Positions 8,843 to 31,710 of a stretch of 64,000 nucleotides of DNA are shown in pieces. Every line of letters starts with the position of its first letter. Position 1 is the stretch's first letter. The DNA comes from Blastocladiella emersonii ATCC 22665 (lineage: Eukaryota; Fungi; Blastocladiomycota): assembly GCA_025594325.1 (NCBI GenBank), contig JANHCV010000008.1, positions 558,001-622,000 of the forward strand, in the 5' to 3' direction. The notes under the pieces are model-generated. The model was not told where the DNA came from. It saw nothing but the letters and a program-made list of their open reading frames with translations, and did no database searches. Position numbers and translations under genes: made by a program.

Positions 8843-10117
8843 ATGAATCTCCCCGACTTGCTGCAAACCTCGCCGTTCTGTGACTGGGCCGCGACAGCGC
8901 ACGCGTTTGATGCGAATACGGCCAAGCTGTTGCAGGTCTTCCACCTCGTGGCCCTCATCGCCGCTGCTGCAACGCTTCCCTTCGCGTACTACACTTGCTA
9001 CAGTTACTTTATCCGTCAACGCCGCCGCTTCTTCGCACCACGAACCGCCGATTCGGCGCGCCTCAAGCCGATGCCAAATGAGTGCTTCATTGCTGGGTTC
9101 ACCGCGGTAATGCACACATTTGTCGTTTGGCATTTGCTCATGTACTTTAACGCGGGCTCGCCGCTCCTGCGCCACTTCGTCCAAAACTTGCGCTACTCGG
9201 TGGCCGTGGTCGGGTGCATCCTGTACCTCGTCGGGTTCCTGTCGAGCATCCCGTCTGGCGCCGCGACGATCGCTTCTGGGTTCGCTCAGGACCGACTGCC
9301 CAGCTGGAAGCGGCTTCTGCTCGCAGTCCCGGTGCCAAAGCCCAAGGCCATGAACCTAATCTTGCTGTACTCCCTCGTCGTACACCTGATCACGGCCAAC
9401 GGGATCGCGATCGGACTGGGGCTTGCAACGACGTGGGCGGAAGCGCGGATCTGGCGGGCTGCACTCTGGACGGTATGGAGCGTTTTCACCGGCTTTCTCG
9501 CGCTATCCCTCGCCTTGTTTGGCGTGCAGCTCCTTGTCATCGTGGACGCTAACGAGCGGCACCGCATCACGACCAAGGTCTCGTCTCGCCCAGAAAGCCT
9601 CATTGCGATCAAAGAGGAGAAAGCCGCGGCGACCCCCGACCCTCCAATCCAGAAAACGGCGGCCATGTCGCAGTCTCCAAGCATCGGCGCCGCCGCGAGC
9701 TCTCTGATCCGCTCCTTGCGGTCCAACAGCCAGGATCAGTCGGCCAGCCGCTCAAACCCAGACGATTCGCCTGATGCCCAGTCCCTCCGACGCGCTCGCT
9801 CGTTCAGCCTCAAGCAACTGCGCGCAGTGATTGCTGCGACGGTGATGCTCTGTAGCTGCTACGTGCTAATCAACGTCATGACCATGGTCGCGCTCGAGCT
9901 GATGCATACCTACGCACCGACCTTGAAAACGCTTTCCAGCGACATGCTGTTCATGATTCCCGCCTTGTACCACATCGTCATGGGCCCGGTCGCAGGATTC
10001 TTCGTCTTTGTCGGGTTTACGGTCGTGATTGTGTTTACGAGGCCGGCGTTGCCCAGCTCGGCGTCTCTAGCGAGCTCCGCTAGTGCTGTGCGATCGCGGT
10101 CGAATTCGAACCAGTAA
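8843..10117 (+). CDS. Seven-transmembrane (GPCR-like topology) protein, paralog 1
   Basis: 424 aa with seven hydrophobic segments and a long S-rich loop between segments 5 and 6; obvious paralog of 13681 and 32154. Confidence 0.75.
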   Translation: MNLPDLLQTSPFCDWAATAHAFDANTAKLLQVFHLVALIAAAATLPFAYYTCYSYFIRQRRRFFAPRTADSARLKPMPNECFIAGFTAVMHTFVVWHLLMYFNAGSPLLRHFVQNLRYSVAVVGCILYLVGFLSSIPSGAATIASGFAQDRLPSWKRLLLAVPVPKPKAMNLILLYSLVVHLITANGIAIGLGLATTWAEARIWRAALWTVWSVFTGFLALSLALFGVQLLVIVDANERHRITTKVSSRPESLIAIKEEKAAATPDPPIQKTAAMSQSPSIGAAASSLIRSLRSNSQDQSASRSNPDDSPDAQSLRRARSFSLKQLRAVIAATVMLCSCYVLINVMTMVALELMHTYAPTLKTLSSDMLFMIPALYHIVMGPVAGFFVFVGFTVVIVFTRPALPSSASLASSASAVRSRSNSNQ

Positions 10118-13417: not shown

Positions 13418-13680
13418 AGTCAAGGCGGTTGATAAATTTCACAATTAAGAGGCAAGAAAGAGATAGTCACCGAGCCTGTATATAAATGTGTTGTTAGTTC
13501 GAGTACTCATTTGTGCCCAGCTGTCCCTCAGCGTTGGCAAATGCCCGTGTCTCGCACCACGTGATGTCTCGCGGTTTTTCGCGACGCGTGAATCCACCCG
13601 AGCGCGTGGACATCGTGCGACCACCAAGCTCAATCGCGGTGAGCTTTACACCTGCTGCAAAAACCTCCTGTAATCGCACC

Positions 13681-14723
13681 ATGAAGCTCAAGGACATCCC
13701 GCAGACCCCTCCCTTCGGCGATTGGGCAGCAACTGCGCGCGGCTTCGACGCGGTCACCGCCGACCTTGTTCAGCGCTTGCACCTAGTGGCGTTCGCCGGA
13801 GTCCTTGCGAGTTTTCCCTTTGCATTCTATACCCTTCACCACGTCTTCATCCGCCAACGTCGCCGCTTCTTTGCCCCACGGACTTCAGAGTCAGCTTTAA
13901 TCAAACCCATGCCCAATGAATGCTTCACCGCAGCAGTATTCGCTTCTGCGCCGGCGTTTATAATCTGGCAGCTGCTGTTGTATTTTGACGTGGGTCCGCC
14001 CGCCCTTCGACACTTTTTCCAAAACTTGCGCTATACGATGGCCGAGATCGGTAGCATTTTGTACCTTGTTGGGATCCAGTCGACGATTCCGCCAGGCGCT
14101 GCGACCCTCGCTAGCGGCTTTGCCCAGGACTCGTTGCCCTTATGGAAGCGACTCGTGCTTGCTGTTCCCGTCCCCCGGCCCAAAACCATGAACATCGTCA
14201 TGCTCTACTTTCTCATCATTCATGTAATCGCCACCAGTTCCATCACAATTGGTCTGGGGCTCGCCTCAACATGGGACGAAGCTCGAATCTGGCGCGCCGC
14301 CCTGTGGACCGTCTGGATCACCTTCACTGGATTCATCTCGCTCTTCCTTGCCCTCTTCGGCATCCAGCTGCTCGTGATCATTGATGCGAACGAGAGACAT
14401 CGCATGGCTACCGTGGTTCCGTCTCGGCCAGAGAGCTTCATGCTGGTCGAGAAGGAGAGCGCGTCCGCCAGCTCTGCACCCCCAAGCCCGGCAGCCATCA
14501 AGAAGTCGGCCTTCGTGTCGAGATCACTGGGTCTCGATCCTGCGACTCCATCCCGCTTGACACGGTCAAACCAAGGCCATTCCAGCAAAAGGTCTAGCCA
14601 CAGCGACGGAACAGACGCTCCCTCCTTGCGCCGAGCGCGCTCCATCAACCTCAAGCACTTGCGCAGCGTGATCCTGGCCGTCAGCGTTCTGTGCGGCAAC
14701 TACTCAATTATCAACGTACTTAC
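13681..14723 (+). pseudogene. 7TM paralog 2, 5' part, split by the viral insertion
   Basis: Aligns with paralogs 1 and 3 up to NYSIINVLT, where viral sequence begins. Confidence 0.9.
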
Positions 14724-15868
14724 TGTCGTATCCCTTAAGGGATACAACATGGGCTGACCCACTGCCACTCGGGCTGACCAATTGCTTACCCCGAGCGGTC
14801 GGCGACAGTCACTCGGGGTAACCACGTGAGACCCCGTTGCTTACCCCGGGTGGTTAATAAAATGTCGGATTCAAATGTTGTGTTCCCTTAGGGAACACGA
14901 CACGCGGACGGAGGCCAAAGGCCGAAGCAGGTAGGCGGGAGGGTGGGTGGAAGGGAGGGGCAAGCAGTCCAGGAGTGAGTCCCTGACCTGACCCCCGAGC
15001 CCGTCCCTAACCAACCCCTTGGGCTGACCATTGCTTACCCCGAGCGGTTGGCGGCGGCCGGCGAGCGCAGCGAGACGAAGAGCAGCGCAGCTGCGGCTAC
15101 CCACTGACAGAGTTCCCTGGTCTGGTCCCTGAGCACGGCTGCGAGTCGATCTGCGAGTTGATCTGCGAGACAAGTCCAAGAGCAGATCCCTGAGCCTGTC
15201 CCTGACCAACCACTCAGACTGACCATTGCTTACCCCGAGCGGTCGGCGGCGGCCGGCGAGCGCAGCGAGACGAAGAGCAGCGCAGCTGCGGCTACCCACT
15301 GACAGAGTTCCCTGGTCTGGTCCCTGAGCACGGCTGCGAGTCGATCTGCGAGTTGATCTGCGAGACAAGTCCGAGAGCAGATCCCTGAGCCCGTCCCTGA
15401 CCAACCACTCAGACTGACCATTGCTTACCCCGAGCGGTCGGCGGCGGCCTGCAAGCGCAGCGAGACGAAGAGCAGCGCAGCTGCGGCTACCCACTGACAG
15501 AGTTCCCTGGTCTGGTCCCTGAGCACAGCTGCAAGTCGATCTGTGAGCAGTCCCCGAGCCAGTCCCCGAGCCAGTCCCTGACCACCTGCCGCAAGCAGCT
15601 GCTATGAAGCCACTCACCGTAAAGGTCCCAAATTCATGGCAAAAAACAGCAGAGTATATATATACACTACCCTTTTTTGCCATGAATTTGGGACTTTCAA
15701 AGACAAGAGGTCAGGGTACGGGGGGAGGTCAAGGATGGGGGAGCGTCCTTAGCAGCATCAATGTATTGGGCAGGACAGGGGTCAAGGTACAAGGTCAAGG
15801 CAGGGGAGCGTCTTAGCAGGCAGCGTCTTAGCAGGCAGGAAGGCAGCGTGGCAGGTCATGGAGTGTCT
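14724..15868. repeat. Left terminal inverted repeat (1145 bp), containing 195-bp tandem units starting at 15024, 15219 and 15414
   Basis: Reverse complement of 30509-31458 with one extra 195-bp unit; it ends exactly at the helicase stop codon. Confidence 0.92.
15625..15694. other. Perfect 22-bp inverted repeat around a TATATATATA-containing loop; candidate replication origin (mirrored at 30683-30752)
   Basis: GTCCCAAATTCATGGCAAAAAA, a 26-nt spacer, then TTTTTTGCCATGAATTTGGGAC. Confidence 0.6.
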
Positions 15869-18800
15869 TAGAGCTCGTTGTTGTCCTCGTTGTTGTCCTC
15901 GTCCTCGTCCATCTCCAGGACAAACGGCGCCGAATTGGCTGGGGGTCGGTTCCAGGTCTTGTACATGACAAAGTACAGAATGTCGTCTGTCCACTTCAGG
16001 TTACTGTACTTCTTGCCGCGTACTGAGACCCGGGGTTCGTCCTTGTCTGGCACAGCAAGGCACTTGTTAAAGTAGGTGCCAAGAAGCCTGTTTAGGACTG
16101 TTGCTGTGTCACACTTGTAATACCCAAGCTTCTTGAAGTACTTGTGGATGTCCGCTTCAAACTTGGCGGGGATGGTGGCCTGGATGTTGAACTCCTCGGA
16201 CGTGCAGAGGTCCACGTCGTTGTGTTCCAGGAGCTTGTGCAGGACGTGGCCCTTGTCCTTGGTGTAAAAGTGCTGGATACGCTCCATGAAGCTCTCCGCG
16301 TTGTCGTCCCAGATGATCTTCATGTTGTCCATGCTCAGACCATTGAACTTGCGGATGAAGAAGGCCTTGCGGACAGAGAGGGAGATGGTCCAGTCCGGGT
16401 CCTTGATGGTACCTTTGCAGTAGGCACGCATGAGCTCCTTGGATGGTGGCTGGACGTTTGCCCATTCAAAAGACCAGCCCAACGTCATGACATCCTTAAT
16501 CTCGGGGTGCGCCTTGTAGTAGTACTCGGGGGAGTCGTCCATGACAATGTTGGCGACCTTGCAGAAGGCGTCAAAGACCTTGAGGCAGAAGGTCACAGCG
16601 GCCATCTCGTTCTCAAGATCTGTGTTCTTGACAATAGCCCGGTGAAGTTTGCCGACCGAGTCCAAGTCAATGACCTGTAACTTGTTCATGTACGCGCCGT
16701 GGCAACCATTGCTGATCATGAACACGATCTCGTTGTCATTGGGGTAGCGCACGCGGTAGATTGCCTGGAAGAAGTCGCGGGCAGGGACCCAGGACTCGTA
16801 GCGCGCGTACACCTTGTGGAAGACGTCTGGCTTTGAAAAGTTGACCCCCACAGTGATCTTGAGGTTGGCGATGACTATACGGACCGTATCGTCGCCCCAC
16901 ACAGAGTCAGGGTCAATGAGTTCCTTGTCCTCGTGGTTGGGGCGGTCGCCGTGGTAGAGCTTGATCTGCTTGCCAATCTTCCACGTCTCCTCGGCAAAGA
17001 CCCGCTCGAGGTACTCGCCAAAGGTCTGCACCGACCACTTGGTTGACTTCTTGCATGGTCGTGGGAGGAAGAGGTAGAGCTTCTTGTTGGCCTTGAGGTC
17101 GGCAATGATGTTGCTCTCCATGATGTCTTCAGCGGACTTCTCCTTGTCCTTGTCGTCGGTGATGAGGCTCATCTTGCGCGGCTCAAACTCCTTGCCAAGC
17201 GTGTTCGTGATCACCTTGATCTTACCATGGAGTATGGTCTTGATGTTGTGCTCAACAGTAAAGGAGTGGAGGACGTCCATGGTCAGGTTCGTGACAAACG
17301 CGTCCATGAAGATACCCTTGCTGCCCTTGTGCTCGCACAGCGTCTTGAAGGCCTTGAGGTTGGCCTCGAGGTTGTTGCGAATGGTGGTTGTGTGCAACTT
17401 GGCGTCCTGGAACATCTTGAGGACTGTCTTGGACTCGTCCACCACAACAATGTTGTAGGGCTCAGTCAAGTAGTGCAGCGAGCACGGCGAGACAATGAGT
17501 CGCTTGTGATCCCCCAGTGTCTTCTTGTCCTTGATGCTGCGGTAGTTGACAAAGCCAAGCTTCTGTTCGCGGGCTCGACCCTCGGTGTTGTGGGCCAGGG
17601 TGATGCGAGGTGTGATCCAGACCACTCGCGCGTCTGGGTACTTGGCAATGTAGTTGCAAACAGCGCCCGTCTTGTTGGAGCCCATGCCCGTGGCCAGCAC
17701 GTTGAACTTGGCCAGGGTAATGTTGTCGCAGGACAGGAACTGGTTGGGGCTGGTCACGTCCACTGGTACCTCAAGCGACTGCTCAAACTTGGCCATGGCC
17801 TTGGACTTGAACGCGGCTGGGAACCGCTTGTAGAAGATGGCCTTGACAAACGTGTCCAGCACCTGGTAGTTGTTGTTGCTGGCAATCTCGTTCCATCGGC
17901 CCCAGTACTTTTGCATGCGCTGAGCCGAGTTGTCCTGCTGCGACGTCCACGCCCAGAACTGGTCAAATGTGACCCCTTTGCGCATGGCCCATGTCATGAT
18001 CCGCCAGGTCACGTTGTTGTGGAATGCGTTCTCGGGGCTGATGGGGATGTTGTGGAGGATCTCGAGTGGCGTGGCGTTGTAGTAGAAGAAGTCGGGGTCG
18101 ATCTGCACGTCCTTGAACTCGGGGATGTCAAGGTCGTAGTCAAGGCAACCCGCGTGGCGCTTGGTCCGCGCTTCCTTGGCCTTGGCAGACACAAACTCTT
18201 CAAAGGACAGGTCCGAGACCGACACGCAGTTGGGGTCAAAGTCGCACTGGATCAAGTGCTTGGACAGGCAGTCCTTGTTGCCCGAGATCCACACACCGGG
18301 CGTCTTCTTGGGCTTGGACTGGTTGATGCACTTCATGAAGCGGTGCTTGCTGTACACGCTGGAGTCAAAGCCAAGCTTGACGTGGTCAGGGTGGCTGCAG
18401 AACAGCTTCAGGAACGGCATGTCCTTGAGCGTGACCGTGTAGTTGCTGATGACAATGTGCCACGACTTTTTGAGGTCCGTCTCGTAGCCGCAGACCTGGA
18501 GGTTGGCGCCGGGGAACTGGGTCAGGATGACCTTCTTGATGACGTCCAGGGTCACGTCCTTGCGGTTGCCTGGGCAGTCAATGTCAAAGTAGACCTTGGA
18601 CAGGCGATTGGGGTGGACCATCTCCTGGATGCAGCGGTTCTTGTCGAGGAGCCTGGCCAGGTCGGCTGTCTTGACCTTGGCAAAGTAGTGTGCTGCGATG
18701 GGCTGGCCATTTTTGTCAACGCCCTTGTCAACGAGGCGCTTGATGACCGTCTCGTCGTCTTGCAGCTCAGACAAGAGCGTGCGCTGAGGGCCCATGTCGC

Positions 18801-18879
18801 TGTCGCCACCATCCTTGCCATGGAACCACTTGAGACCAAAGGCGGTGCCATATTTACCGGGAACCTGCTTGCAAGGCAT
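15868..18879 (-). CDS. AEP primase + PriCT-2-like + SF2 origin-binding (UL9-like) helicase fusion, about 1003 aa
   Basis: AEP motifs KVYFDID, KKSWHIVI and FDSSVYSKHRFMKCINQSK; a W-rich PriCT-2-like block; helicase motifs TGMGSNKT, VVVDES, FMDAF, ITVGVNF and FQAIYRVR. Start placed at MPCKQ using the promoter motif. Confidence 0.8.
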   Translation of the reverse strand: MPCKQVPGKYGTAFGLKWFHGKDGGDSDMGPQRTLLSELQDDETVIKRLVDKGVDKNGQPIAAHYFAKVKTADLARLLDKNRCIQEMVHPNRLSKVYFDIDCPGNRKDVTLDVIKKVILTQFPGANLQVCGYETDLKKSWHIVISNYTVTLKDMPFLKLFCSHPDHVKLGFDSSVYSKHRFMKCINQSKPKKTPGVWISGNKDCLSKHLIQCDFDPNCVSVSDLSFEEFVSAKAKEARTKRHAGCLDYDLDIPEFKDVQIDPDFFYYNATPLEILHNIPISPENAFHNNVTWRIMTWAMRKGVTFDQFWAWTSQQDNSAQRMQKYWGRWNEIASNNNYQVLDTFVKAIFYKRFPAAFKSKAMAKFEQSLEVPVDVTSPNQFLSCDNITLAKFNVLATGMGSNKTGAVCNYIAKYPDARVVWITPRITLAHNTEGRAREQKLGFVNYRSIKDKKTLGDHKRLIVSPCSLHYLTEPYNIVVVDESKTVLKMFQDAKLHTTTIRNNLEANLKAFKTLCEHKGSKGIFMDAFVTNLTMDVLHSFTVEHNIKTILHGKIKVITNTLGKEFEPRKMSLITDDKDKEKSAEDIMESNIIADLKANKKLYLFLPRPCKKSTKWSVQTFGEYLERVFAEETWKIGKQIKLYHGDRPNHEDKELIDPDSVWGDDTVRIVIANLKITVGVNFSKPDVFHKVYARYESWVPARDFFQAIYRVRYPNDNEIVFMISNGCHGAYMNKLQVIDLDSVGKLHRAIVKNTDLENEMAAVTFCLKVFDAFCKVANIVMDDSPEYYYKAHPEIKDVMTLGWSFEWANVQPPSKELMRAYCKGTIKDPDWTISLSVRKAFFIRKFNGLSMDNMKIIWDDNAESFMERIQHFYTKDKGHVLHKLLEHNDVDLCTSEEFNIQATIPAKFEADIHKYFKKLGYYKCDTATVLNRLLGTYFNKCLAVPDKDEPRVSVRGKKYSNLKWTDDILYFVMYKTWNRPPANSAPFVLEMDEDEDNNEDNNEL

Positions 18880-19054
18880 GTTGTTATGATGAGGTAACAG
18901 AAATGGTGACAGGGCAGGTGCGTTTAAACGCGCAGGATTTAGCGCTAATGGCTGTGACCCGGGAGCCCTTGTTGGCATGGCCCATGACTTGCCACTGTCC
19001 TGACCCAGACCCGGCTGCCCTTGCGTGACCTGACCCTGACCCAGACACAACCTC

Positions 19055-19371
19055 CCCCATGAGCCCAACTTGGGAGCCAGTCGAGGCCGAGGTCACAATC
19101 CGCTCAAACCGTGACCTGGGACGCGACTGAGGGCGAAGAACCGGACCTCCACCCCCCATGACCCCGACTTGGGCGCCAGCAGAGGCCGAGGTCACAAACC
19201 CCCCATGAGCTCAACTTGGGAGCCAGTTGAGGCTGAGGTCACAATCCGCTCAAACCGTGACCTGGGACATGACTGAGGGCGAAGAACCGGACCTCCACCC
19301 CCCCCCCCCATGACCCCGACTTGGGCGCCAGCAGAGGCCGAGGTCACGAACCTCTCAAACCGTGACCTGGG
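19055..19371. repeat. Two copies of a ~146-150 bp unit with internal sub-repeats in the divergent helicase/recombinase intergenic region
   Basis: CCCCATGAGC(C/T)CAACTTGGGAGCCAG...CAAACCGTGACCTGGG recurs at about 19055 and 19201. Confidence 0.85.
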
Positions 19372-19496
19372 CCCTCCCACGGTCCATGACTTGCCACCAC
19401 CCTGACCCTGACCCAGGCCCAGCTACCCAGAAAAAAGAACGTTGCGTTCAAACGCACTTGAGCCCATGGAGCCTTTTTGTTGACAGTCAGTAAACC

Positions 19497-20624
19497 ATGT
19501 TGCTCGAGTCTCTTGCCTCTCAGGTCGCTGTTGCCCTCGCTCAGCATGTTGCCGCAGACGTGGTGCAGCAAGTCATGGACAAGCTCCAGCCCGTGTTTGG
19601 GTCAATCGACAAGCGCTTCAAGGACTTGGACGCGCGACTCAAGGCCATCAAGTCACACGACCCAGATCATGGCGCTGATCAGCAAGTCACTCCCATGGAA
19701 GTCGACACCCCCAAGGTCAAGTTTGCCGAGCTGACCGAGGATGCCATCAAGGCATGTGTCAACGCGCCTGTGGTGGACAAGAACAGGGAGCAGGCCGAGC
19801 TGGACGCCGACGACAAGGCCAAGACGGCTCGTGTACTCCTTGCCTTTGCCGCGTCAGGTCTGGACATCCAGGATGTCGAGGCTGTGTCCAAGGCCGTGGC
19901 CACCTACCGTGCGACCAAGGGGTCCAAGAACGTCCAGGGTCTGCAGGTCGAGACGCTCAAGGCCCTGGCCAAGTACTGCACCTGGAACGGGTGGACCGAA
20001 CTCGGGGCCAAGTACACAGAGGCCAAGAAGCAGGACGCTGCCAACTTCCGCAACGCGCGCAAGGAACTCGAGTCTGGTGCGCTCCCAAGCCGTGACGCCA
20101 TTTGCGCCGCTATTGTTGATGCAAAGGGCTCGGGCACGGGGCTCCTGCGTCTGTACCTCCAAGTTGTGAGTGCGGTGCGCTCTGACCCTGCGTTCCTGAC
20201 CACGAAGCCAACCACTGGGTACCCGTACTACGACCCAGAGACCCAGATTCTGGCTGGCGATGTCATTGTCAAGACAGAGGGCTGTGGCTACAACTTCTTG
20301 CACACAGTTAGTGAGCCCAAGGTCGCCGCCGCTCTCAAGCGTATCCTCGCCCAGCGTCTCGCCAAAGGTCATGACTTTGTCTTCAACAACTACACCCTCA
20401 AGGAGCTCAAGGACACCACGCTCCGCAAGAGGGTTAGCAGCACCTGGTGTACGTCAATTAGTCGGGCTGCAAAGACGGTCGGCTTTGAGGATGGCGGCGT
20501 GGCAGTGATCCGCCGTATCTCCACCAGTGAGAACTTTGCTGCGCAGCAAGCTATTGCCAAACGCGCGCACGAGATGGGTCACAGCGTCCCCGTTGCGCTG
20601 ACCTACTACATGACGCCTCAGTAA
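19497..20624 (+). CDS. Tyrosine recombinase-like protein (375 aa)
   Basis: Catalytic-type residues in order: R (VSAVRSD), K (VKT), xxRR (VAVIRR) and AHEMGHS-x6-YY at the C-terminus. Confidence 0.75.
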   Translation: MLLESLASQVAVALAQHVAADVVQQVMDKLQPVFGSIDKRFKDLDARLKAIKSHDPDHGADQQVTPMEVDTPKVKFAELTEDAIKACVNAPVVDKNREQAELDADDKAKTARVLLAFAASGLDIQDVEAVSKAVATYRATKGSKNVQGLQVETLKALAKYCTWNGWTELGAKYTEAKKQDAANFRNARKELESGALPSRDAICAAIVDAKGSGTGLLRLYLQVVSAVRSDPAFLTTKPTTGYPYYDPETQILAGDVIVKTEGCGYNFLHTVSEPKVAAALKRILAQRLAKGHDFVFNNYTLKELKDTTLRKRVSSTWCTSISRAAKTVGFEDGGVAVIRRISTSENFAAQQAIAKRAHEMGHSVPVALTYYMTPQ

Positions 20625-20652
20625 TCCTTTTGTCTCCGCCTTTGTTGATACA

Positions 20653-21765
20653 ATGTATGCCCACAAAGAGCCGCTCACAGACGCACAGCAAGCATTCCTG
20701 ACAGACTTGTACTACAAGCGCGGCCACGTAGGTGTTGGCATCCGTCAGCTCTTTGACATTGTGTCCAGAGAGAACACAGGGAAGCACATCTACTGCGCCC
20801 AGCTTGAGAGATGGCTCGGCGAACAGTCCGTGTGGCAGCAGTACAAGCGCGCACCTCAGAAGCGCCGAGACATTCGAAGCATCAACTCAACGAGCCCCGG
20901 TCGCAACTTCCAGCTTGACCTCATTGACATGGGCGAAAACGGTACGTACAAGGGCTTCCGTTACATTCTTACGTGTGTCGACCTGGCGAGCCGCCGCGTC
21001 TACCTCCAACCCATCAAGACCAAGGACAAGACGCGGGAAGCATGGTCCAGCGTGGTCGCCAAGCACAGCCTTGCACCTGCCACAATCCAGACGGACAATG
21101 GGACCGAGTTCTTTGGCATAGAGGCCGGGACTGAGGCCAAGCACATCAAGGGCAAGGCAGGAGTGCCATATGGTCAAGGTGTCGTTGAGCATATGAACGG
21201 GACCATCCGCCGGATGCTCACACCGTGGCTGTCCATCCCGGGCAACAACGACTGGCCCAAGCACCTCGAGACCATTGAATCTGTGATCAACAGCAGCAAG
21301 TCGAGGGCCGCGGGCAGGGCGCCCAACGAGTTCTATGACATGCCCCGCGAAACGGCCAAGGAAGAGCTCAAGGCAATCCGAGCTGCCAAAGGCAAGCCCG
21401 AGGGCGACCCTCTGAGCGCGTTGCTGGAGGTAGGGACCCAGGTCCGAGTCCGCGAGCCGTACAAGACTGCCATGGAGGCCAAGGGGAAGCCAGTCTGGTC
21501 GCCAACCGTGAGCCAGGTCCAGGTTGTGCGCAAGGGGTTGGGCGTGAGCAATCCAAGCTACAAGGTCCAAGGCCTCAAGGGCTTCTACCCTCGAAGCGAC
21601 GTCCAGCCAGTCACAGCGACCCAGGACCCGCCAACAAGGCAGCGCGTAGGTCCAAGTCTTCCAAGGCTCCCTGCTGCGCGCACCCCAGTCACGCCAAGGG
21701 AGCCCTCGACCCGGGTCAGGCGCGTCCCAGTCCGAGTCCAAGAAAAGTGGGACCGCGGGCTTTAG
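20653..21765 (+). CDS. Retroviral-like (rve, DDE) integrase of Polinton type (370 aa)
   Basis: FQLDLIDM, YILTCVD..SR, IQTDNGTEF and GVVEHMNGTIR (D-D-E triad), plus a C-terminal VGTQVRV...WS...YKV SH3-like region. Confidence 0.92.
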   Translation: MYAHKEPLTDAQQAFLTDLYYKRGHVGVGIRQLFDIVSRENTGKHIYCAQLERWLGEQSVWQQYKRAPQKRRDIRSINSTSPGRNFQLDLIDMGENGTYKGFRYILTCVDLASRRVYLQPIKTKDKTREAWSSVVAKHSLAPATIQTDNGTEFFGIEAGTEAKHIKGKAGVPYGQGVVEHMNGTIRRMLTPWLSIPGNNDWPKHLETIESVINSSKSRAAGRAPNEFYDMPRETAKEELKAIRAAKGKPEGDPLSALLEVGTQVRVREPYKTAMEAKGKPVWSPTVSQVQVVRKGLGVSNPSYKVQGLKGFYPRSDVQPVTATQDPPTRQRVGPSLPRLPAARTPVTPREPSTRVRRVPVRVQEKWDRGL

Positions 21766-23705
21766 AGCAGGGTCCAGTGGCTTTGAATGATGACCTGGCA
21801 GTCGTTGGCAACTGCGACCGACGGGATCCAGATGAAAGAGTAGTTCTTGGCCGCGTCAAGGTACTCAATGCTCAAGAACTGAAGGAACTGGACATTGCCT
21901 TCAGCGCGGCACCCGGTGACAAGCAACACTGCAATCATGTCCGTCATATTGTACAGCGCAAAGTTCACAGTGTGGGCTCCAGGGAGCGCGCCGTTTGCGT
22001 AGTAGCCCTTTGCATGGACGAGGTAGTAGCCACTGACAGGGGGTTTGACGCATCCATTGATCACAGACGTGAACGCGCCTGCCGTGGACTGGAACGCAAA
22101 GGTGGCCGGGCCCGTTGATGCTGTGCCGCCAATGATCTTGCCGCCCGTGGTCACTCTGTTTGTAGAGCGGTGCTTGGCCTGAGCGACGTACCGGGTCGTG
22201 CCAGACCGCGAGTCAACATACGCCTTGTTTGCTGCGTCGGTGCCTGCCACTGGAGCGAGGTCAAGGGTGAGCTGCCCTGTGAAGCGACCAGTGCCATTGA
22301 CGCGGAGCCTTTCTGTGCCAAGCGTCGCCGAGCCCACGACCACATTGCCACCACCTGCCACAAGGGAGACCCCGCCCGTGGTCGCAGACGCAATCTCAAT
22401 GTTACCCGCCGCTGTGCATGCCAGGTTGCTTCGCAGTACGCCTGCCTGCTTAAAGTCGACGTACGTCAATGTATTGGCAGCCGAGTCAAAGACAAGGTTT
22501 GCACTTGTGGCATTCCGGACCAGGACGTTGGGCACAGTCAGTTGCTTGCCAACTCCAAGACCACCAGCAATGGTGACTGCTCCAGTGCTTGATGTCAAAC
22601 TGTCCGTCGTATTTGCAAAGGCAAAGGCAGCGCCGAGTCCAAGGGTGGACTGGGGGAGCGTGCCAATGACCGAGGCTGCGCTCACGGCCGTGACCTTGGC
22701 TGAGACGTCGGGGAGTCGTGCCAGGTCAATGGTCCCTGCAAGCTTGGCCGAGTCAATGCCAGATGCCAGCTTGGCGCTGGTCAGGGTCCCGTCGGCGATG
22801 CGGGCAGGGTCAAGGATCCCAGTGAGCTTGACTGCCGACACGTCCGCGACCTTGGCGTCCATGACTGCGCCTGCTGCCAGGTGGGCTGTTCCAATGGACC
22901 CAACGTTGAGCTTGCCCCCATCAATGCCAGTTGCCAGCTTGGCGTTGGTCACGGCCGCGTCTGCCAGGACCAGGGAGCCGACCGTGCCCGCTGCCAGCTT
23001 GGACCCGTCGATGCCAGCTGCCACCTTGGCGTTGGATACGGCACCGTCTGCCAGGGCTCCCATCCCAATAGTCCCTGCAACGAGCTTGGACCCAGACACG
23101 GACGCGACCTTGGCATCTGTGACTGCCAGGTCGATGAGAGCCGCTGTGCCAACCGTGCCTGCCACAAGCTTGGACCCGGACATGGACGCGACCTTGGCAT
23201 CAGTCACTGAGCCGTCTGCCAGGACCGAGGTCCCGACCGTGCCTGCCACAAGCTTGGACCCGGACACAGACGCAACCTTGGCATCAGTCACTGAGCCGTC
23301 TGCCAGGACCGAGGTCCCAACGGCTGGGAGGTTGGACGCACTGAGCACGCCCACAAGCTTGGACGCAGACACAGTGTCCAGCTGAGCATTGACGAGCTTG
23401 CCTGTGACCTGCCCTGCTGTAATCGTGGCGACCTTGTCAGCCGTGACGCTGGCCGGGAGCAGCTGTGCCGTGCCAACTGACTTGACATAGAGCCCTGCTG
23501 CGCCCACGCCAAGGGTCTGGTTGTCGACCTTGGCCGAGACAGTGGTCCCTGAGACTGCCACGCCAGGGCCAGCAACAGGTGCGCCAACCGTGGCATACAC
23601 GGCACTGATGGCCGCGTCAACGTAGGCCTTGGACACGTCCGGGACCCCCGTGGTAGACACGGTCGGAGACGCAGTACTTGAGACGTTAAAGATATTCTTG
23701 ACCAT
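21762..23705 (-). CDS. Putative fibre/spike protein with 25-aa repeats (647 aa)
   Basis: Tandem LADGSVTDAKVASVSGSKLVAGTVGT-type repeats (75-bp period), a TSSTGAVTIAGGLGVGKQL fibre-like motif and a beta-rich C-terminal head (KPPVSGYYLV). ATG at 23705 is preceded by the viral promoter motif. Confidence 0.7.
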   Translation of the reverse strand: MVKNIFNVSSTASPTVSTTGVPDVSKAYVDAAISAVYATVGAPVAGPGVAVSGTTVSAKVDNQTLGVGAAGLYVKSVGTAQLLPASVTADKVATITAGQVTGKLVNAQLDTVSASKLVGVLSASNLPAVGTSVLADGSVTDAKVASVSGSKLVAGTVGTSVLADGSVTDAKVASMSGSKLVAGTVGTAALIDLAVTDAKVASVSGSKLVAGTIGMGALADGAVSNAKVAAGIDGSKLAAGTVGSLVLADAAVTNAKLATGIDGGKLNVGSIGTAHLAAGAVMDAKVADVSAVKLTGILDPARIADGTLTSAKLASGIDSAKLAGTIDLARLPDVSAKVTAVSAASVIGTLPQSTLGLGAAFAFANTTDSLTSSTGAVTIAGGLGVGKQLTVPNVLVRNATSANLVFDSAANTLTYVDFKQAGVLRSNLACTAAGNIEIASATTGGVSLVAGGGNVVVGSATLGTERLRVNGTGRFTGQLTLDLAPVAGTDAANKAYVDSRSGTTRYVAQAKHRSTNRVTTGGKIIGGTASTGPATFAFQSTAGAFTSVINGCVKPPVSGYYLVHAKGYYANGALPGAHTVNFALYNMTDMIAVLLVTGCRAEGNVQFLQFLSIEYLDAAKNYSFIWIPSVAVANDCQVIIQSHWTLL

Positions 23706-23725
23706 GTTTAACCTTAAGCAACAGA

Positions 23726-23977
23726 ATGATTTCCAGCGACCATGACCTGAGCCTGGATGAGTGGCGGGAGCACCTCGCCGGGACCATGCCCGTGCCAAGC
23801 AGCTGGTACAGCAAGAGCGACGAGGACAAGGCCAAGTGGCTACAGAAGCGCGACTGCAAGGCCAACCGGTACACGCACGTCGACAACGAGGCAGCGCGGG
23901 CAGAGCGGGTTAAGATCCGGATCTACAAGGCACTCAACGCCAAGCGCCGGGACCAGGGGGCAAATAGCACCGTCTGA
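23726..23977 (+). CDS. Small charged viral hypothetical protein (83 aa)
   Basis: Viral-like codon usage, divergent from the fibre gene, with TTCTTG-N8-TAAC at 23695-23712 upstream. Confidence 0.5.
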   Translation: MISSDHDLSLDEWREHLAGTMPVPSSWYSKSDEDKAKWLQKRDCKANRYTHVDNEAARAERVKIRIYKALNAKRRDQGANSTV

Positions 23978-24054
23978 GGGACAAAAGGCACCTGCCACGG
24001 GGAAAAAGGTACCAACAGGGGGACGTTTTATTTTTGGTCCATACAGTAACCATC

Positions 24055-25770: not shown

Positions 25771-25779
25771 CGCCCTTTT

Positions 25780-25799
25780 TTGTTGGCAGTCTTTAAATG
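25780..25799 (+). promoter_or_regulatory. Example of the viral bipartite promoter TTGTTG-N8-TAAATG (ATPase gene)
   Basis: The same spacing recurs at 19477, 26610, 27873, 28166, 28939, 23724(-), 29491(-) and 18900(-). Confidence 0.75.
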
Positions 25800-26594
25800 T
25801 ACGACATTGTTGCCATTGACAACGGCTTTACGCGCAACGACGACGGCGAGCCGCTGCCGATCCCCAAGCACCCGTTCACCATGAACGTCATTGGCGCCAA
25901 GGGTCAGGGCAAGTCGACGCTGATCGCAAACATGGTCTGCTTCCCGCACTTTTACAAGGGCCAGTTCGACAACATCTGGGTCTTTAACCCGACGTTCCAC
26001 GCCGACGACAAGTACGAGTACATTGCCAGTCAACCGATCCTGCGACCGCCCAAGAAGGAGCGCAACGTGCTGGACCCCCAGGAGCGCGACCCGGACCGGC
26101 TCAAGATCAAGCCAGGGTGCATTGTCACGGACCCCGAGCAGTTCATCCCGACCCTGCTCAAGATGCGCCAGGACCTGACCAAGACATTCGAAGAGTCTGG
26201 CAAGAAGGCGCTCCAGGACCAGCTGCTGATCATTGACGACGTGCTCGGGCTCAAGCTGCTGAGCCACAGAACGCTGACCAACTTTCTGTGCAACTCGCGG
26301 CACTTGAAGATCAGCTGCATCATTGGCGTCCAGCGGTGGTGTGCCCTGCCCAAGACTCTGCGCATCAATTGCAGCTACAGCGTTGTCTACCCAATCTATG
26401 ACAAGACCGAGGTCCAGACGCTGCACAAGGAGATTGGGTCGCAGTTCGACCTCAAGGAGTTTGAGGCCATCATTGAACAGCTCTTTGACACGCGTACTGG
26501 CAACACGAAGCGACGCTTCCTGGGCGTCAACAACCAGAACCCGCCCAAGTACCGGCTCGTAGACAGCTTCAGCGAGTGGATCGTGAAGCAGTAG
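25797..26594 (+). CDS. A32/FtsK-like genome packaging ATPase
   Basis: Walker A GAKGQGKS, Walker B LLIIDD, and the SRHLKISCIIGVQ...LPKTLRIN signature of the A32 family. Confidence 0.93.
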   Translation: MYDIVAIDNGFTRNDDGEPLPIPKHPFTMNVIGAKGQGKSTLIANMVCFPHFYKGQFDNIWVFNPTFHADDKYEYIASQPILRPPKKERNVLDPQERDPDRLKIKPGCIVTDPEQFIPTLLKMRQDLTKTFEESGKKALQDQLLIIDDVLGLKLLSHRTLTNFLCNSRHLKISCIIGVQRWCALPKTLRINCSYSVVYPIYDKTEVQTLHKEIGSQFDLKEFEAIIEQLFDTRTGNTKRRFLGVNNQNPPKYRLVDSFSEWIVKQ

Positions 26595-26634
26595 ACTCTT
26601 GACTTTTTTTTGTTGCCGAGTCCTAAACTAAACC

Positions 26635-27855
26635 ATGTCCAGTACCAACGCCCAGTTCTCGCAGGTCCTGTCCAAGACTCTCCCTCCCAAGATGTTGTTC
26701 AACCTGCCCAAGGAGTCCGTCTATGCCGAGCGCCAGACCGTCCAGTTCACGGCTCAGGGCGGCCCTGAGTTTGCTCCTGGCAACAGCATCAGCGTCCTGC
26801 TCCCGCCGCGCGATGACATGATGGACACGCACTGTACTTTCCTGCAGTTCTCGGCCAAGACCACGGACGCCAACGTTGCTTTCTGCAATGGTATCTTCAG
26901 CGTCATTGACCGTGTCCGCATCTACAGCGCGTCCGGTGCCCTACTCGAAGAGCTCCCGTACTACAACCTGCGTCAGCGCATCGAGGCCGACGTGACGGTC
27001 CCCCAGTACCTCAAGGACTTGTGTCTCGGCGTGGCACAGGGCTACTTTGCGTCCGGCGCAGACAAGTTCGCTGTCTCATCTGGGCTGCACCGGTACATGC
27101 TGCCCATCAAGTCGGCCCTGCTGGCAAACCAGAAGCACCTCCCAATGAAGTACACGGGCGGCATCCGCGTCGAGTTCACCCTTGCACCTGGCAGTGACGC
27201 CTGCGTGGTCAAGAACAATGCCATCCCGGGCTACACAGTCAAGGACGTCTGCATCGTCTCGGACCTGATCAAGCTCAACGACCAGCAGATCGCGGTCATG
27301 GACGCGGCCTTCAAGAAGCAGGGCCTCAAGCTCTTTGGCACGACCTACAACCACCACTTCCTGAACTACTCGGTGCCCAACTCGACGCTCAACATCTCGG
27401 ACCGCTCGGCCTCACAGAAAGACATCCTGCTGTCGTTCCGCAACAATGCCGTGCTCAATGACAATGCCAAGGACTCGTTCCTTTGTGCCAAGACCATTAC
27501 ATCGTACCAGTTCAGCGTGGCCGGCCGACTCTTCCCTCAGCGACCCATCCGCTGTGACGACTACGCGTCTGAGGCGTTCGTTGAGCTGACCAATGCCTTC
27601 CATGGCCACGTCATTGGCGCTGGCCTCACAGTTGACAAGTTCAACGCGCCGGCCAAGGGTACCTTTGTCGTTGGCCGTGACCTCAAGTCGAGTCGCACCG
27701 TGGTCAGCGGCGACAAGTCTTGCAAGAGCCAGGCCGTGGACATGCAGGTGATCCTGACTTCAAGCGTGGCCCCGAACCAGCGCGTGGACGCCTTCATTGG
27801 CATCGACGTGGTCTACGAGTTCCTGCCAACCGGCGAGATCAACATCTACAAGTAA
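26635..27855 (+). CDS. Major capsid protein, double jelly-roll, PLV type (406 aa)
   Basis: Size, beta-strand pattern, motifs SVIDRVRIYSASGALLEELPYYN, HLPMKYTGGIRVEFTL, SYQFSVAGRLFP and a C-terminal SG, and position next to the ATPase and penton genes. Confidence 0.85.
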   Translation: MSSTNAQFSQVLSKTLPPKMLFNLPKESVYAERQTVQFTAQGGPEFAPGNSISVLLPPRDDMMDTHCTFLQFSAKTTDANVAFCNGIFSVIDRVRIYSASGALLEELPYYNLRQRIEADVTVPQYLKDLCLGVAQGYFASGADKFAVSSGLHRYMLPIKSALLANQKHLPMKYTGGIRVEFTLAPGSDACVVKNNAIPGYTVKDVCIVSDLIKLNDQQIAVMDAAFKKQGLKLFGTTYNHHFLNYSVPNSTLNISDRSASQKDILLSFRNNAVLNDNAKDSFLCAKTITSYQFSVAGRLFPQRPIRCDDYASEAFVELTNAFHGHVIGAGLTVDKFNAPAKGTFVVGRDLKSSRTVVSGDKSCKSQAVDMQVILTSSVAPNQRVDAFIGIDVVYEFLPTGEINIYK

Positions 27856-27897
27856 CAGCCCTGTCCTTTCTTTTCTTGCGTAGAGTTAAACCCCGCC

Positions 27898-28164
27898 ATG
27901 ATCTTCCGTAACCTCTGGACCAACTTTAGCAATGTGCTCGGCCAGGTCGGGTCCTTTGTCAACAAACACATGCCGACCGTCCTCAAAGGCGTCAAGACCG
28001 TGTCCAAGTTCTTTGAGCAGTCGCACAACCCCGCCGTGAGCTCCATTGCGCAGATGGTGTCCAAGGGCGCCAACCTCGCCCAAGACATTCACACCTGGTA
28101 CAACCGACCAACGAGCGAGATCTTTGAGGCAGACGCTGACGACACGGGGACAGCTGTACAATAA
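27898..28164 (+). CDS. Small amphipathic-helix protein, candidate core/membrane-penetration protein (88 aa)
   Basis: N-terminus FRNLWTNFSNVLGQVGSFVNK; it lies between the MCP and mCP genes and has its own promoter motif. Confidence 0.65.
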   Translation: MIFRNLWTNFSNVLGQVGSFVNKHMPTVLKGVKTVSKFFEQSHNPAVSSIAQMVSKGANLAQDIHTWYNRPTSEIFEADADDTGTAVQ

Positions 28165-28182
28165 ATTGTTGTCTTTGTTTAA

Positions 28183-28926
28183 ATGTCCGAGTACAAGACG
28201 CTGACCATCTGCAGCCGCGACCTCAAGAATGGCATCCTGTACCTGCCACGACCCCTGTCCGTGCGCGGCGTCAAGGTCAACTCGGCGTACCTCTGCAACA
28301 GCTGGCACACGGTCAACTCCAAGGCCAACAAAGTGTACCTGACCCAGAGCCGTGGCGCGCTGACGTTCCCGGGTACCATCACTGTCCCTGACAGCAACTA
28401 CACAGTCAAGACGTTCACGGCCACGCTCAAGAGCCTGCTCAACAACGCGCCGTCGTCGTACCTCTGGCAGGGCTCCTGGGACGTCCAGGTCGACTCGACT
28501 ACCCAGAAGATGCGCCTGGCCAACGACACGGTTGACTTTACAATTGGAACAGGGACGGCGTTGCTGAACGTCCACATGGGCTTTGTTGGAGCGTATGGCT
28601 ACAGCAAGGTCCAGTACGGGTCGGCGCTGGTCAACATCTCGCCCATCAACCTGCTTCACGTCTACTTGCGCAACCTTGGCACCCGGCTCGCGGACAACAT
28701 GTTCTTGGCGTACCCACAAGACAACGGCGTACTTTGTAGCATCCACGTCACGCAACCCTTTGGCAGCTGGTTCGAGCATCGACCACACATGGGCGACTAC
28801 TTTCGCTTTGACGCGCAGGGACAGGCCCAGCAGATTGACTGTATTGACATTGACGTGGTAGACAAGAACCTGCGCTCTGTCGACTTTCTTGGCCAACCCT
28901 TCTACGTCGAGCTCGCGTTCATCTGA
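28183..28926 (+). CDS. Minor capsid (penton) protein, single jelly-roll (247 aa)
   Basis: ITVPDSNYT and C-terminal IDIDVVDKNLRSVDFLGQPFYVELAF, typical of PLV/Polinton minor capsid proteins. Confidence 0.85.
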   Translation: MSEYKTLTICSRDLKNGILYLPRPLSVRGVKVNSAYLCNSWHTVNSKANKVYLTQSRGALTFPGTITVPDSNYTVKTFTATLKSLLNNAPSSYLWQGSWDVQVDSTTQKMRLANDTVDFTIGTGTALLNVHMGFVGAYGYSKVQYGSALVNISPINLLHVYLRNLGTRLADNMFLAYPQDNGVLCSIHVTQPFGSWFEHRPHMGDYFRFDAQGQAQQIDCIDIDVVDKNLRSVDFLGQPFYVELAFI

Positions 28927-28957
28927 CGTTGACTTTAATTGTTGTTCTACTGTAAAC

Positions 28958-29059
28958 ATGATCCTCGAGACGCTCCTTGTTGCCACCAACGCCCTGATCC
29001 TTGTAGCCAACCTGGCCATTGTCGGGTACACAAGCAAAGTATTCCGCGCCGTAGAGTAA
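28958..29059 (+). CDS. 33-aa single-pass hydrophobic peptide (not in the ORF track)
   Basis: MILETLLVATNALILVANLAIVGYTSKVFRAVE, directly preceded by TTGTTG-N8-TAAAC. Confidence 0.6.
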   Translation: MILETLLVATNALILVANLAIVGYTSKVFRAVE

Positions 29060-29319
29060 GCAACAACATGTGCTTTAAATTCTTTCTGCGAAGGCATAGT
29101 AAGACACAGGACAATGAATACTGGCTCTACTGCATCAACGCCCCGCGCACCTTCCACAAGCATCCCTTGGACTGGCCGTCCGGGCCCCCAGACAACAGCC
29201 AACTACACAGCCATCCGCAACGTGGCCCTGCCAGGTGTCAAGGTTGTGTACACTGTCTGCTTTGAATAGATCCTTCAAGTTAACTTGGTTAGCTACCTTG
29301 AAGCCTTTACTGGTCGCTC

Positions 29320-30508: not shown

Positions 30509-31458
30509 AGACACTCCATGACCTGCCACGCTGCCTTCCTGCCTGCTAAGACGCTGCCTGCTAAGACGCTCCCCTGCCTTGACCTTGTACCTTGACCCCT
30601 GTCCTGCCCAATACATTGATGCTGCTAAGGACGCTCCCCCATCCTTGACCTCCCCCCGTACCCTGACCTCTTGTCTTTGAAAGTCCCAAATTCATGGCAA
30701 AAAAGGGTAGTGTATATATATACTCTGCTGTTTTTTGCCATGAATTTGGGACCTTTACGGTGAGTGGCTTCATAGCAGCTGCTTGCGGCAGGTGGTCAGG
30801 GACTGGCTCGGGGACTGGCTCGGGGACTGCTCACAGATCGACTTGCAGCTGTGCTCAGGGACCAGACCAGGGAACTCTGTCAGTGGGTAGCCGCAGCTGC
30901 GCTGCTCTTCGTCTCGCTGCGCTTGCAGGCCGCCGCCGACCGCTCGGGGTAAGCAATGGTCAGTCTGAGTGGTTGGTCAGGGACGGGCTCAGGGATCTGC
31001 TCTTGGACTTGTCTCGCAGATCAACTCGCAGATCGACTCGCAGCCGTGCTCAGGGACCAGACCAGGGAACTCTGTCAGTGGGTAGCCGCAGCTGCGCTGC
31101 TCTTCGTCTCGCTGCGCTCGCCGGCCGCCGCCAACCGCTCGGGGTAAGCAATGGTCAGCCCAAGGGGTTGGTTAGGGACGGGCTCGGGGGTCAGGTCAGG
31201 GACTCACTCCTGGACTGCTTGCCCCTCCCTTCCACCCACCCTCCCGCCTACCTGCTTCGGCCTTCGGCCTCCGTCCGCGTGTCGTGTTCCCTAAGGGAAC
31301 ACAACATTTGAATCCGACATTTTATTAACCACCCGGGGTAAGCAACGGGGTCTCACGTGGTTACCCCGAGTGACTGTCGCCGACCGCTCGGGGTAAGCAA
31401 TTGGTCAGCCCGAGTGGCAGTGGGTCAGCCCATGTCGTATCCCTTAAGGGATACGACA
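30509..31458. repeat. Right terminal inverted repeat (950 bp)
   Basis: Reverse complement of the left TIR minus one 195-bp unit; ends in the perfect palindrome TGTCGTATCCCTTAAGGGATACGACA. Confidence 0.92.
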
Positions 31459-31463
31459 CTTAC

Positions 31464-31710
31464 AATTGTCGCGTTCGAAGCAACGCACGCCAGCGTCACC
31501 ACGGACTCGACTACGCTGTCGAGCGACCTGATCTTTCTACTCCCGACAGCTTACCACATTCTCGCCGGCTCGGTTTTTGTGCTGGCTTATTTTGTTGGAT
31601 TCACGGTCGTGATCGTCTTCACCAAGCCCCCGTCGCCCTCCCCAAACGAGACTGAATCTCTGGCCCGTTCTCAATGGGCGCGGTCGCGAGCAAGCTCCGT
31701 TAAAGCGTAA
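31464..31710 (+). pseudogene. 7TM paralog 2, 3' part
   Basis: IVAFEATHASVTTDSTTLSSDLIFLLP...YFVGFTVVIVFTKPP matches the C-termini of paralogs 1 and 3. Confidence 0.9.

What the first reader, a model, noticed from the sequence alone, without database searches (positions are those of the whole stretch)
14724..14749. 26-bp palindromic tips plus two recombinases: a possible hairpin-telomere or resolution system
Seen: both ends are the palindrome TGTCGTATCCCTTAAGGGATACGACA (perfect at 31433-31458, one mismatch on the left). A related hairpin GTGTTCCC-TTA-GGGAACAC lies at 14880-14898. Known: TG...CA ends with a short TSD are the footprint of DDE integrases; tyrosine recombinases normally leave no such TSD; protelomerases are tyrosine-recombinase relatives acting on palindromes. 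Inference: the rve enzyme integrated the element, so the tyrosine recombinase (19497-20624) has another job. It may resolve replication intermediates or make hairpin ends, solving end replication without a protein-primed polymerase, or it may drive excision.
Basis: partly seen in the sequence, partly recalled or inferred. Interest (0 to 1): 0.8.

Follow-up and report, generated by a model that had tools for sequence, protein, structure and literature searches.

The report
Palindrome-tipped fungal virus, two recombinases
A virus-like element inserted in a fungal genome ends in mirror-image 26-base tips and carries two intact-looking DNA cut-and-join enzymes; one likely inserted it, the other is predicted to be Cre-like rather than a hairpin-telomere enzyme, and the tips likely record a fold-back end of the free virus.

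Summary
The palindromes at 14724-14749 (one mismatch) and 31433-31458 (perfect) are the exact tips of a 16,735-bp element with about 1.1-kb terminal inverted repeats and a 5-bp CTTAC duplication, splitting a host gene. It is a multi-copy Polinton-like virus: primase-helicase, tyrosine recombinase (YR), rve integrase, A32 ATPase, likely capsid genes, no pPolB found. All named relatives are Blastocladiella emersonii. The YR is real: its catalytic residues are conserved in 25 relatives, with few exceptions. Both modelled domains resemble Xer/Cre (Z 8-10) more than TelK, TelA or ResT (Z 2.8-4.9), so it is probably no protelomerase. Terminal palindromes on pPolB-less virophages and PLVs, with a hairpin model, are already in a 2026 preprint, including a PLV subtype with no reported YR. 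Best reading (0.43): the tips are opened fold-back ends written in by rve plus gap repair, and the YR works elsewhere. Strongest rival (0.30): a symmetric site lets a Cre-like YR excise the inverted-repeat provirus as a circle that rve re-inserts. No free form or activity was observed. New variant of a known kind.

The parts
14719..14723 (.). left target-site duplication CTTAC
14724..14749 (.). P1 left: terminal 26-bp palindrome (10+6+10), one CpG-type mismatch at 14746
14724..15868 (+). left terminal inverted repeat, 1145 bp, with GGGCTGACC and GCTTACCCCG subterminal repeats and three 195-bp units
14876..14902 (.). P2 left: internal 27-bp TG...CA near-palindrome, arms related to P1, asymmetric TTA centre
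15622..15697 (.). P3 left: 76-bp imperfect palindrome, 22-bp perfect arms, (TA)n centre; candidate replication origin (inferred)
15868..18978 (-). 1036-aa primase-helicase: SF2 helicase domain by profile; N-terminal AEP primase motifs by eye only
   Evidence: PF02399 E 5.5e-11, CyRepA1 E 3.7e-19, motif positions
19497..20624 (+). 375-aa tyrosine recombinase, Xer/Cre-like fold; predicted catalytic R228 K259 (A336) R339 H362 Y371
20653..21765 (+). 370-aa stand-alone rve (DDE) integrase, D89 D148 E179
   Evidence: PF00665 E 2.7e-6, under the curated cut-off; IS481 model E 2.9e-16
21762..23705 (-). 647-aa fibre-like repeat protein
25797..26594 (+). A32-like packaging ATPase
   Evidence: PF04665 E 1.6e-12
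26635..27855 (+). 406-aa likely major capsid protein (inferred from size and position; no profile or structure hit)
28183..28926 (+). 247-aa likely minor capsid protein (inferred from position)
30509..31458 (-). right terminal inverted repeat, 950 bp (two 195-bp units)
30680..30755 (.). P3 right
31280..31306 (.). P2 right
31433..31458 (.). P1 right: perfect terminal 26-bp palindrome
31459..31463 (.). right target-site duplication CTTAC
13564..14723 (+). 5' part of the interrupted host gene (aligns to residues 1-345 of the paralogue at 32154-33428)
31459..31710 (+). 3' part of the interrupted host gene (aligns to paralogue residues 347-421)

Best explanation
The palindromes are the exact tips of a multi-copy Polinton-like virus, and each is likely the opened form of a fold-back (hairpin or head-to-head junction) end of the free genome, which the rve integrase would nick after CA and insert. 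Inferred steps: (1) the free genome carries the 26-mer once per hairpin tip or junction; (2) rve cuts 3' of the CA and joins that end to host DNA with a 5-bp stagger; (3) host gap repair copies the 26-nt single strand, which writes a full palindrome and the duplication at each end; (4) the primase-helicase replicates from an internal origin, P3 being the candidate, and the fold-back tips solve end replication. The YR is a Xer/Cre-type enzyme that likely does not make the tips. It probably resolves multimers or circles at another site (P2 is a candidate) or inserts the genome into a helper giant virus. Shown: tips, duplication, gene set, copy number, YR fold and residues. Inferred: every reaction.
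For: Exact boundaries and duplication. 14 listed contigs of run X2 and 10 of X1 leave the tip into other flanks (3 rows not shown). Intact DDE triad. In cryptophyte PLVs duplications track rve, not YR (PMC12220804, passages). Halocafeteria elements have palindromes next to the duplication, preferentially with non-pPolB replicases and particular RVEs, including PLV subtype 4, while its PLVs are said to lack YR (bioRxiv 10.64898/2026.07.28.741278, section 7). P1 folds as a full hairpin, -10.8 kcal/mol. Weak hints from single contigs that symmetry matters more than spacing: a P2 variant with other, shorter arms but the same TGTC..CCC-TTA-GGG frame (runs X1, X4) and one P1 copy with an extra central T (X3) (table 7). 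The YR is closer to Xer/Cre than to telomere resolvases.
Against: No free, hairpin-ended or junction molecule was seen, and contigs cannot show one. The model needs an unidentified enzyme to regenerate hairpins from replicated junctions, a gap that the YR would fill neatly. P1 has the arm-and-spacer shape of a YR core site. The YR lies 28 bp upstream of rve and stays with the family (19 of 21 listed capsid loci). Published absence of YR is weak evidence, because this YR has no Pfam hit at E 0.1 and would be missed. An element with its own primase does not need a hairpin primer.
Confidence: 0.43

Rival explanations
1. YR out, rve in. A palindromic site is direct as well as inverted, so a Cre-like YR can recombine the two P1 tips and excise a provirus bounded by inverted repeats as a circle with one P1 between the repeats, leaving a solo-P1 scar. 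rve then cuts both CA ends 26 nt apart and gap repair doubles P1 again.
For: Cre/Xer-like fold in both domains. Catalytic residues kept down to 25% identity. P1 is 10+6+10 with a symmetric centre, and symmetric loxPsym sites give deletion as well as inversion (PMC9227491, passages). P1 and P2 are the only near-perfect palindromes with loop up to 8 nt in the element. YR and rve are adjacent, also in a copy with a divergent YR (P0026). YRs correlate with AEP or PolA replicases and make circles (bioRxiv 10.64898/2026.10.13.758929, section 11). Retroviral integrases cleave palindromic LTR-LTR junctions (titles in search listing only).
Against: Palindromes without a reported YR in Halocafeteria PLV subtype 4, and 52-nt palindromes in virophage subtype 5, longer than a core site. 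YR sequences vary widely among copies (57-94%, 38%), while a divergent-repeat copy still matches the first 22 nt of P1 with at most 3 differences over a 31-nt piece (X3 record 17). About 20 symmetric sites would risk translocations (inference). No scar or circle was observed; the laying tool listed no piece under 31 nt, so a 26-nt scar would probably not show.
Confidence: 0.3
2. One reading: the YR works as a telomere resolvase, cutting a replicated repeat-P1-repeat junction 6 bp apart around CTTAAG and sealing two hairpin ends.
For: Perfect palindrome with a 6-bp symmetric centre, the stagger of all known protelomerases (PMC3558466, section 10). The first catalytic His is replaced (A/Q/R), as in TelA (Y363). 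R-K and K-X spacings (31, 77) equal TelA's. A long helix (167-192) joins the domains. TelA was the only recognisable member of the superfamily among the Foldseek rows shown for the poor full-length model (E 0.19-0.62). Few mutations convert TelA into a recombinase (PMC12270096, abstract), so fold class does not fix the reaction.
Against: Catalytic domain Z: XerA 9.4 (rmsd 4.4, 152 aligned), TelK 4.9, TelA 4.2-4.4, ResT 2.8. N-domain: Cre 7.7 (rmsd 3.9, 101 aligned) against TelA 3.9. In BFVD, giant-virus and virophage proteins and phage integrases rank above the EhV-86 resolvase (rank 40, E 0.085). R-H 23 and H-Y 9 differ from TelA's 28 and 11. Relatives hit Phage_integrase weakly (E 0.005, 0.06; 2 of 7 YRs scanned).
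Confidence: 0.12
3. P1 and P2 are only symmetric protein-binding or end-recognition sites of an ordinary linear genome, and the YR is a passenger of a module swap or serves only a helper virus.
For: P2 repeats P1's arms 152 bp inside, where no end is made. Integration and replication modules are swapped often in these viruses. YR plus rve in virophages is usually explained as two hosts, two integrases.
Against: It does not explain why a full palindrome sits flush with the duplication at both ends here and in unrelated pPolB-less elements. A decaying passenger would not keep its catalytic residues.
Confidence: 0.15

Closest known systems
Halocafeteria seosinensis endogenous virophages (subtypes 1, 2, 5, 6) and PLV subtype 4 (bioRxiv 10.64898/2026.07.28.741278; section 7 and passages read, figures not seen)
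   Same: Palindromes at the repeat tips next to the duplication, non-pPolB replicase, RVE integrase; hairpin model proposed; some virophages have RVE plus YR.
   Different: There YR plus RVE is reported for virophages only; the palindrome shown is 52 nt; protist host. Here a PLV-like gene set in a fungus, a 26-bp tip, a second related internal palindrome and an SF2 primase-helicase.
Mid-GC EMALE virophages of Cafeteria burkhardae (PMC8547959, passages)
   Same: YR plus rve-INT plus a long primase/helicase; duplications mostly 3-5 bp.
   Different: Virophages; the word 'palindrom' does not occur in the main text; YR is assigned to integration into giant viruses.
Polinton-like viruses of chytrids and other protists (Spizellomyces punctatus PLV, PMC7805220; cryptophyte PLVs, PMC12220804; passages)
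   Same: Size, terminal repeats, A32 ATPase, capsid module, non-pPolB replicase.
   Different: They normally carry rve or YR. In the cryptophyte study the two co-occurred in 11 PLVs and 1 virophage of 8300, always with rve fused to reverse transcriptase.
Entomopoxvirus-associated PLV 'end module' (PMC11296320, passages)
   Same: Order inverted repeat, primase-helicase, YR; repeats proposed as origin and YR substrate; dimer resolution suggested.
   Different: The passages read describe no rve in that module; 'palindrom' does not occur in the text.
Protelomerases TelA, TelK, ResT
   Same: YR-superfamily fold, palindromic site with a 6-bp centre, non-His first catalytic position.
   Different: Much lower structural scores than Xer/Cre; different C-terminal catalytic spacing; no activity shown.
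Cre with loxPsym; Xer recombinases
   Same: Best structural neighbours; a symmetric site permits excision.
   Different: Only 8-18% identity; loxP arms are 13 bp with an 8-bp spacer (listing), against 10 and 6 here.

Membership tests
Polinton-like virus | 15-40 kb element with terminal inverted repeats | tested here: met
   16,735 bp; repeats 1145 and 950 bp
Polinton-like virus | A32-like packaging ATPase | tested here: met
   PF04665 E 1.6e-12
Polinton-like virus | double jelly-roll major capsid protein and minor capsid protein | tested here: inconclusive
   406-aa and 247-aa ORFs follow the ATPase, conserved in copies and one 38% relative; no Pfam, PHROG or PDB hit; not folded
Polinton-like virus | virions or free genome | not testable with these tools
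   only genomic contigs were available
Polinton/Maverick (strict) | protein-primed DNA polymerase B | tested here: not met
   none among the 11 element ORFs scanned; the remaining 28.9-30.2 kb holds no ATG-ORF over 74 aa
Polinton/Maverick (strict) | rve integrase with short duplication | tested here: met
Virophage | maturation cysteine protease and virophage-type capsid protein | tested here: inconclusive
   no protease hit among the 11 ORFs scanned; capsid type not determined
Tyrosine recombinase (Xer/Cre/Int) | core-binding helical domain plus catalytic domain fold | tested here: met
   XerA Z 10.1, rmsd 2.5, 91 aligned; XerA Z 9.4, rmsd 4.4, 152 aligned, model pLDDT 75.5
Tyrosine recombinase (Xer/Cre/Int) | R-K-H-x-x-R-H/W-Y catalytic set | tested here: met
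   of 26 relatives: R228 22 of 24 covering, K259 25 of 25, R339 23 of 25, H362 25 of 25, Y371 25 of 25; first His replaced by A, Q or R. Roles assigned by motif, not assayed
Tyrosine recombinase (Xer/Cre/Int) | strand exchange on its site | not testable with these tools
   needs an assay
Protelomerase / telomere resolvase | catalytic domain closer to TelA/TelK/ResT than to recombinases | tested here: not met
   TelK 4.9, TelA 4.2-4.4, ResT 2.8 against XerA 9.4, Cre 7.9 in one run
Protelomerase / telomere resolvase | profile match to the telomere resolvase family | tested here: inconclusive
   not listed for the window protein or 7 relatives; the family is too divergent for any firm profile hit
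Protelomerase / telomere resolvase | palindromic target with 6-bp centre | tested here: inconclusive
   P1 has this shape, but it is not shown to be the target
Protelomerase / telomere resolvase | hairpin formation and hairpin-ended replicon | not testable with these tools
   contigs collapse fold-backs
rve / DDE integrase | D-D-E triad, TG...CA ends, short duplication, varied targets | tested here: met

The most novel reading that the evidence does not exclude
A two-enzyme exit-and-entry cycle: palindromic tips turn inverted termini into a loxPsym-like pair, so a Cre-like viral recombinase excises the provirus as a circle with one shared palindrome, and the retroviral-type integrase re-inserts it by a 26-nt staggered cut that regenerates both tips. 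This would explain how pPolB-less Polinton-like viruses leave the chromosome and why YR and rve are kept together. A bolder variant (about 0.12) has the same enzyme seal hairpin telomeres.
Probability: 0.3. Interest if true: 0.78.

Novelty: new variant of a known kind. Interest (0 to 1): 0.52.

Why it matters
How endogenous Polinton-like viruses and virophages leave the host chromosome and replicate their ends without a protein-primed polymerase is unresolved. This family offers about 20 near-identical recent copies in a culturable fungus, a 26-bp candidate site and a 375-aa enzyme, so three models (hairpin tips, Cre-like excision, telomere resolution) can be separated by one genome scan and one plasmid assay. 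A stand-alone rve plus an intact YR is rare among described PLVs. I found no paper naming both Blastocladiella emersonii and Polinton or protelomerase and polinton in the library searched.

Tried and rejected
No whole genome was held, so other copies' ends, duplications and solo scars could not be read directly. Sequence searches of the PDB with the YR, helicase and capsid gave nothing meaningful. The ESM Atlas gave no result. The full-length YR model was poor (pLDDT 48.9); only its residues 80-193 were used. No RNA holder listed. No strand-changing joint in the contigs of four runs of one sample: uninformative, because a fold-back longer than the assembly word collapses. Contig depth was not used as a copy number. 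The lack of rve relatives in the annotated fungal proteins was rejected as evidence, since one gene model does contain rve behind a YR (P0026) and annotation pipelines often drop such genes (recalled). The 303-aa members of the capsid cluster are minor-capsid gene models, not second capsids. Look-ups of earlier findings by place and sequence were empty. The 2024 MMBR review (PMC11426020) was not held.

Full report
Observation. Both tips are as described: 14724-14749 has one mismatch (14746) and 31433-31458 is a perfect 26-bp palindrome, each flanked by CTTAC. The 22-nt core occurs only at these two places in the window, and never in 100 shuffles. The element is 16,735 bp. Its terminal repeats (14724-15868, 30509-31458) differ at 2 of 950 aligned bases and by one 195-bp unit; both substitutions are CpG to CpA. 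It splits a host gene whose two parts align to residues 1-345 and 347-421 of a nearby paralogue, which fixes the boundaries and points to a recent insertion.

Each repeat holds three palindromes. P1 is the tip. P3 has 22-bp perfect arms around a (TA)n centre. It resembles the herpesvirus oriS layout (recalled), and the element's helicase hits the herpes origin-binding profile, so P3 is my origin candidate. This is inference.

What the element is. It encodes a 1036-aa primase-helicase (PF02399 E 5.5e-11, CyRepA1 E 3.7e-19; AEP motifs by eye only), the YR, a stand-alone rve with D89-D148-E179, a fibre-like protein, an A32 ATPase (E 1.6e-12) and two ORFs placed like major and minor capsid genes. 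No pPolB or protease was found among 11 ORFs scanned. The capsid assignment has no profile or structure support. All named YR and capsid relatives come from Blastocladiella emersonii ATCC 22665, so the host is likely this fungus or a close relative. By hand count of locus tags, 19 of 21 listed capsid loci have a YR gene within 7 tags; 11 of 26 members of the largest cluster were not listed. One gene model joins a divergent YR to rve (P0026). Outside this species only three distant relatives appeared: rve 31%, capsid 38%, YR 25%. In four DNA runs of one sample, contigs leave the tip into other flanks: 14 listed in X2 and 10 in X1, 3 rows not shown. One insertion can give two such contigs.

The recombinase. 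Residues 80-193 match core-binding domains (XerA Z 10.1, XerD 7.5). The catalytic domain, folded alone with 16 sequences (pLDDT 75.5), matches XerA 9.4, XerH 8.4, IntI 8.4, Cre 7.9 and topoisomerase IB up to 8.6, against TelK 4.9, TelA 4.2-4.4 and ResT 2.8. Foldseek ranks XerA first (E 0.005) and TelA at rank 27. Among viral models, proteins of giant viruses, a virophage and phage integrases rank above the EhV-86 resolvase. Across 26 relatives, one of them identical to the window's protein, K259, H362 and Y371 are kept in 25 of 25 that cover them, R339 in 23 of 25 and R228 in 22 of 24. Results favouring the protelomerase reading: the first His is replaced, two catalytic spacings equal TelA's, the linker is a long helix, and TelA appeared among the rows for the poor full-length model at E 0.19-0.62. 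A second look at that model gave Cre 7.7 and TelA 3.9. I conclude it is a YR under selection and probably not a protelomerase family member. That lowers, but does not remove, 'works like one', since TelA converts to a recombinase with few mutations (PMC12270096, abstract and passages).

What is in print. A 2026 preprint on Halocafeteria (section 7 and passages; figures and supplements not seen) reports palindromes next to the duplication in four virophage subtypes and PLV subtype 4, linked to non-pPolB replicases and particular RVEs, and proposes hairpin priming. It finds RVE plus YR in some virophages but not in PLVs. Cafeteria mid-GC EMALEs also carry both enzymes (PMC8547959, passages). In cryptophyte PLVs duplications follow rve, and the two enzymes co-occur only through nested retrotransposons (PMC12220804, passages). 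YRs correlate with AEP or PolA replicases for unknown reasons (bioRxiv 10.64898/2026.10.13.758929, passages and section 11). An 'end module' of repeat, primase-helicase and YR was proposed for entomopoxvirus PLVs (PMC11296320, passages). Chytrid PLVs are known (PMC7805220 and bioRxiv 10.64898/2026.06.19.733378, passages), and giant viruses infect Blastocladiomycota (PMC13533422, passages), so a helper is plausible. Searches for Blastocladiella emersonii with Polinton, and protelomerase with polinton, returned nothing.

Mechanism. Three of the four models share one inferred step: the free genome holds P1 once per tip or junction, rve cuts after CA, and gap repair writes the palindrome at both ends. 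They differ in what makes the tip or junction. I favour fold-back tips that do not depend on the YR (0.43), because the same feature appears in an element reported without YR and because variants in single contigs keep symmetry rather than spacing. Its weakness is the missing resolving enzyme, and the fact that such YRs escape profiles. The strongest rival (0.30) is geometric: a YR can only invert a segment between inverted sites, unless the sites are palindromic, as with loxPsym (PMC9227491, passages). P1 would then let the YR excise the provirus. Telomere resolution (0.12) and mere binding sites (0.15) follow. No free form, junction, scar or activity was observed; contigs showed no strand-changing joint but cannot show one.

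Verdict. Real and well defined; a new variant of Polinton-like viruses in a fungal host with an uncommon YR plus rve pair. The headline idea is partly anticipated in print and the protelomerase kinship is not supported. Interest 0.52, because the alternatives are cheaply testable and bear on how such viruses excise.

Noticed in passing
window 15622-15697 and 30680-30755: 76-bp palindrome with 22-bp perfect arms and a (TA)n centre in each repeat; candidate origin for the origin-binding-like helicase.
   Followed up: partly
window 14724-31458: CpG observed/expected is 0.79 in the interior and 0.71 in the repeat against 1.24-1.29 in host flanks, with TpG and CpA excess; suggests methylation of the element.
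   Followed up: partly
window 14749-14752 and 31430-31434: The inner edge of P1 reads CA|TG, so the element without P1 also has TG...CA ends.
   Followed up: no
window 31459-31463: Several other flanks match the CTTAC duplication at most positions (one reads CATAC); possible weak target preference.
   Followed up: no
P0001-P0029, P0049-P0054: YR genes form at least five variants (94% down to 38% identity) while capsid genes stay 83-97% identical; N- and C-terminal halves look shuffled between variants.
   Followed up: partly
window 8973-9272, 13564-14757, 32154-33428: Tandem family of host membrane-protein genes (repeat families D2, D3); the element sits inside one member.
   Followed up: partly
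window 19054-19408 and 30170-30523: Short direct-repeat arrays between the divergent helicase and YR genes and just inside the right repeat.
   Followed up: no
window 13547, 33482, 35506, 43737, 54432: Recurrent host motif around CACGTG upstream of several genes (family D19); possible promoter element.
   Followed up: no
window 24595-25770: 391-aa Gln/Asn-rich ORF before the ATPase with no family hit.
   Followed up: no
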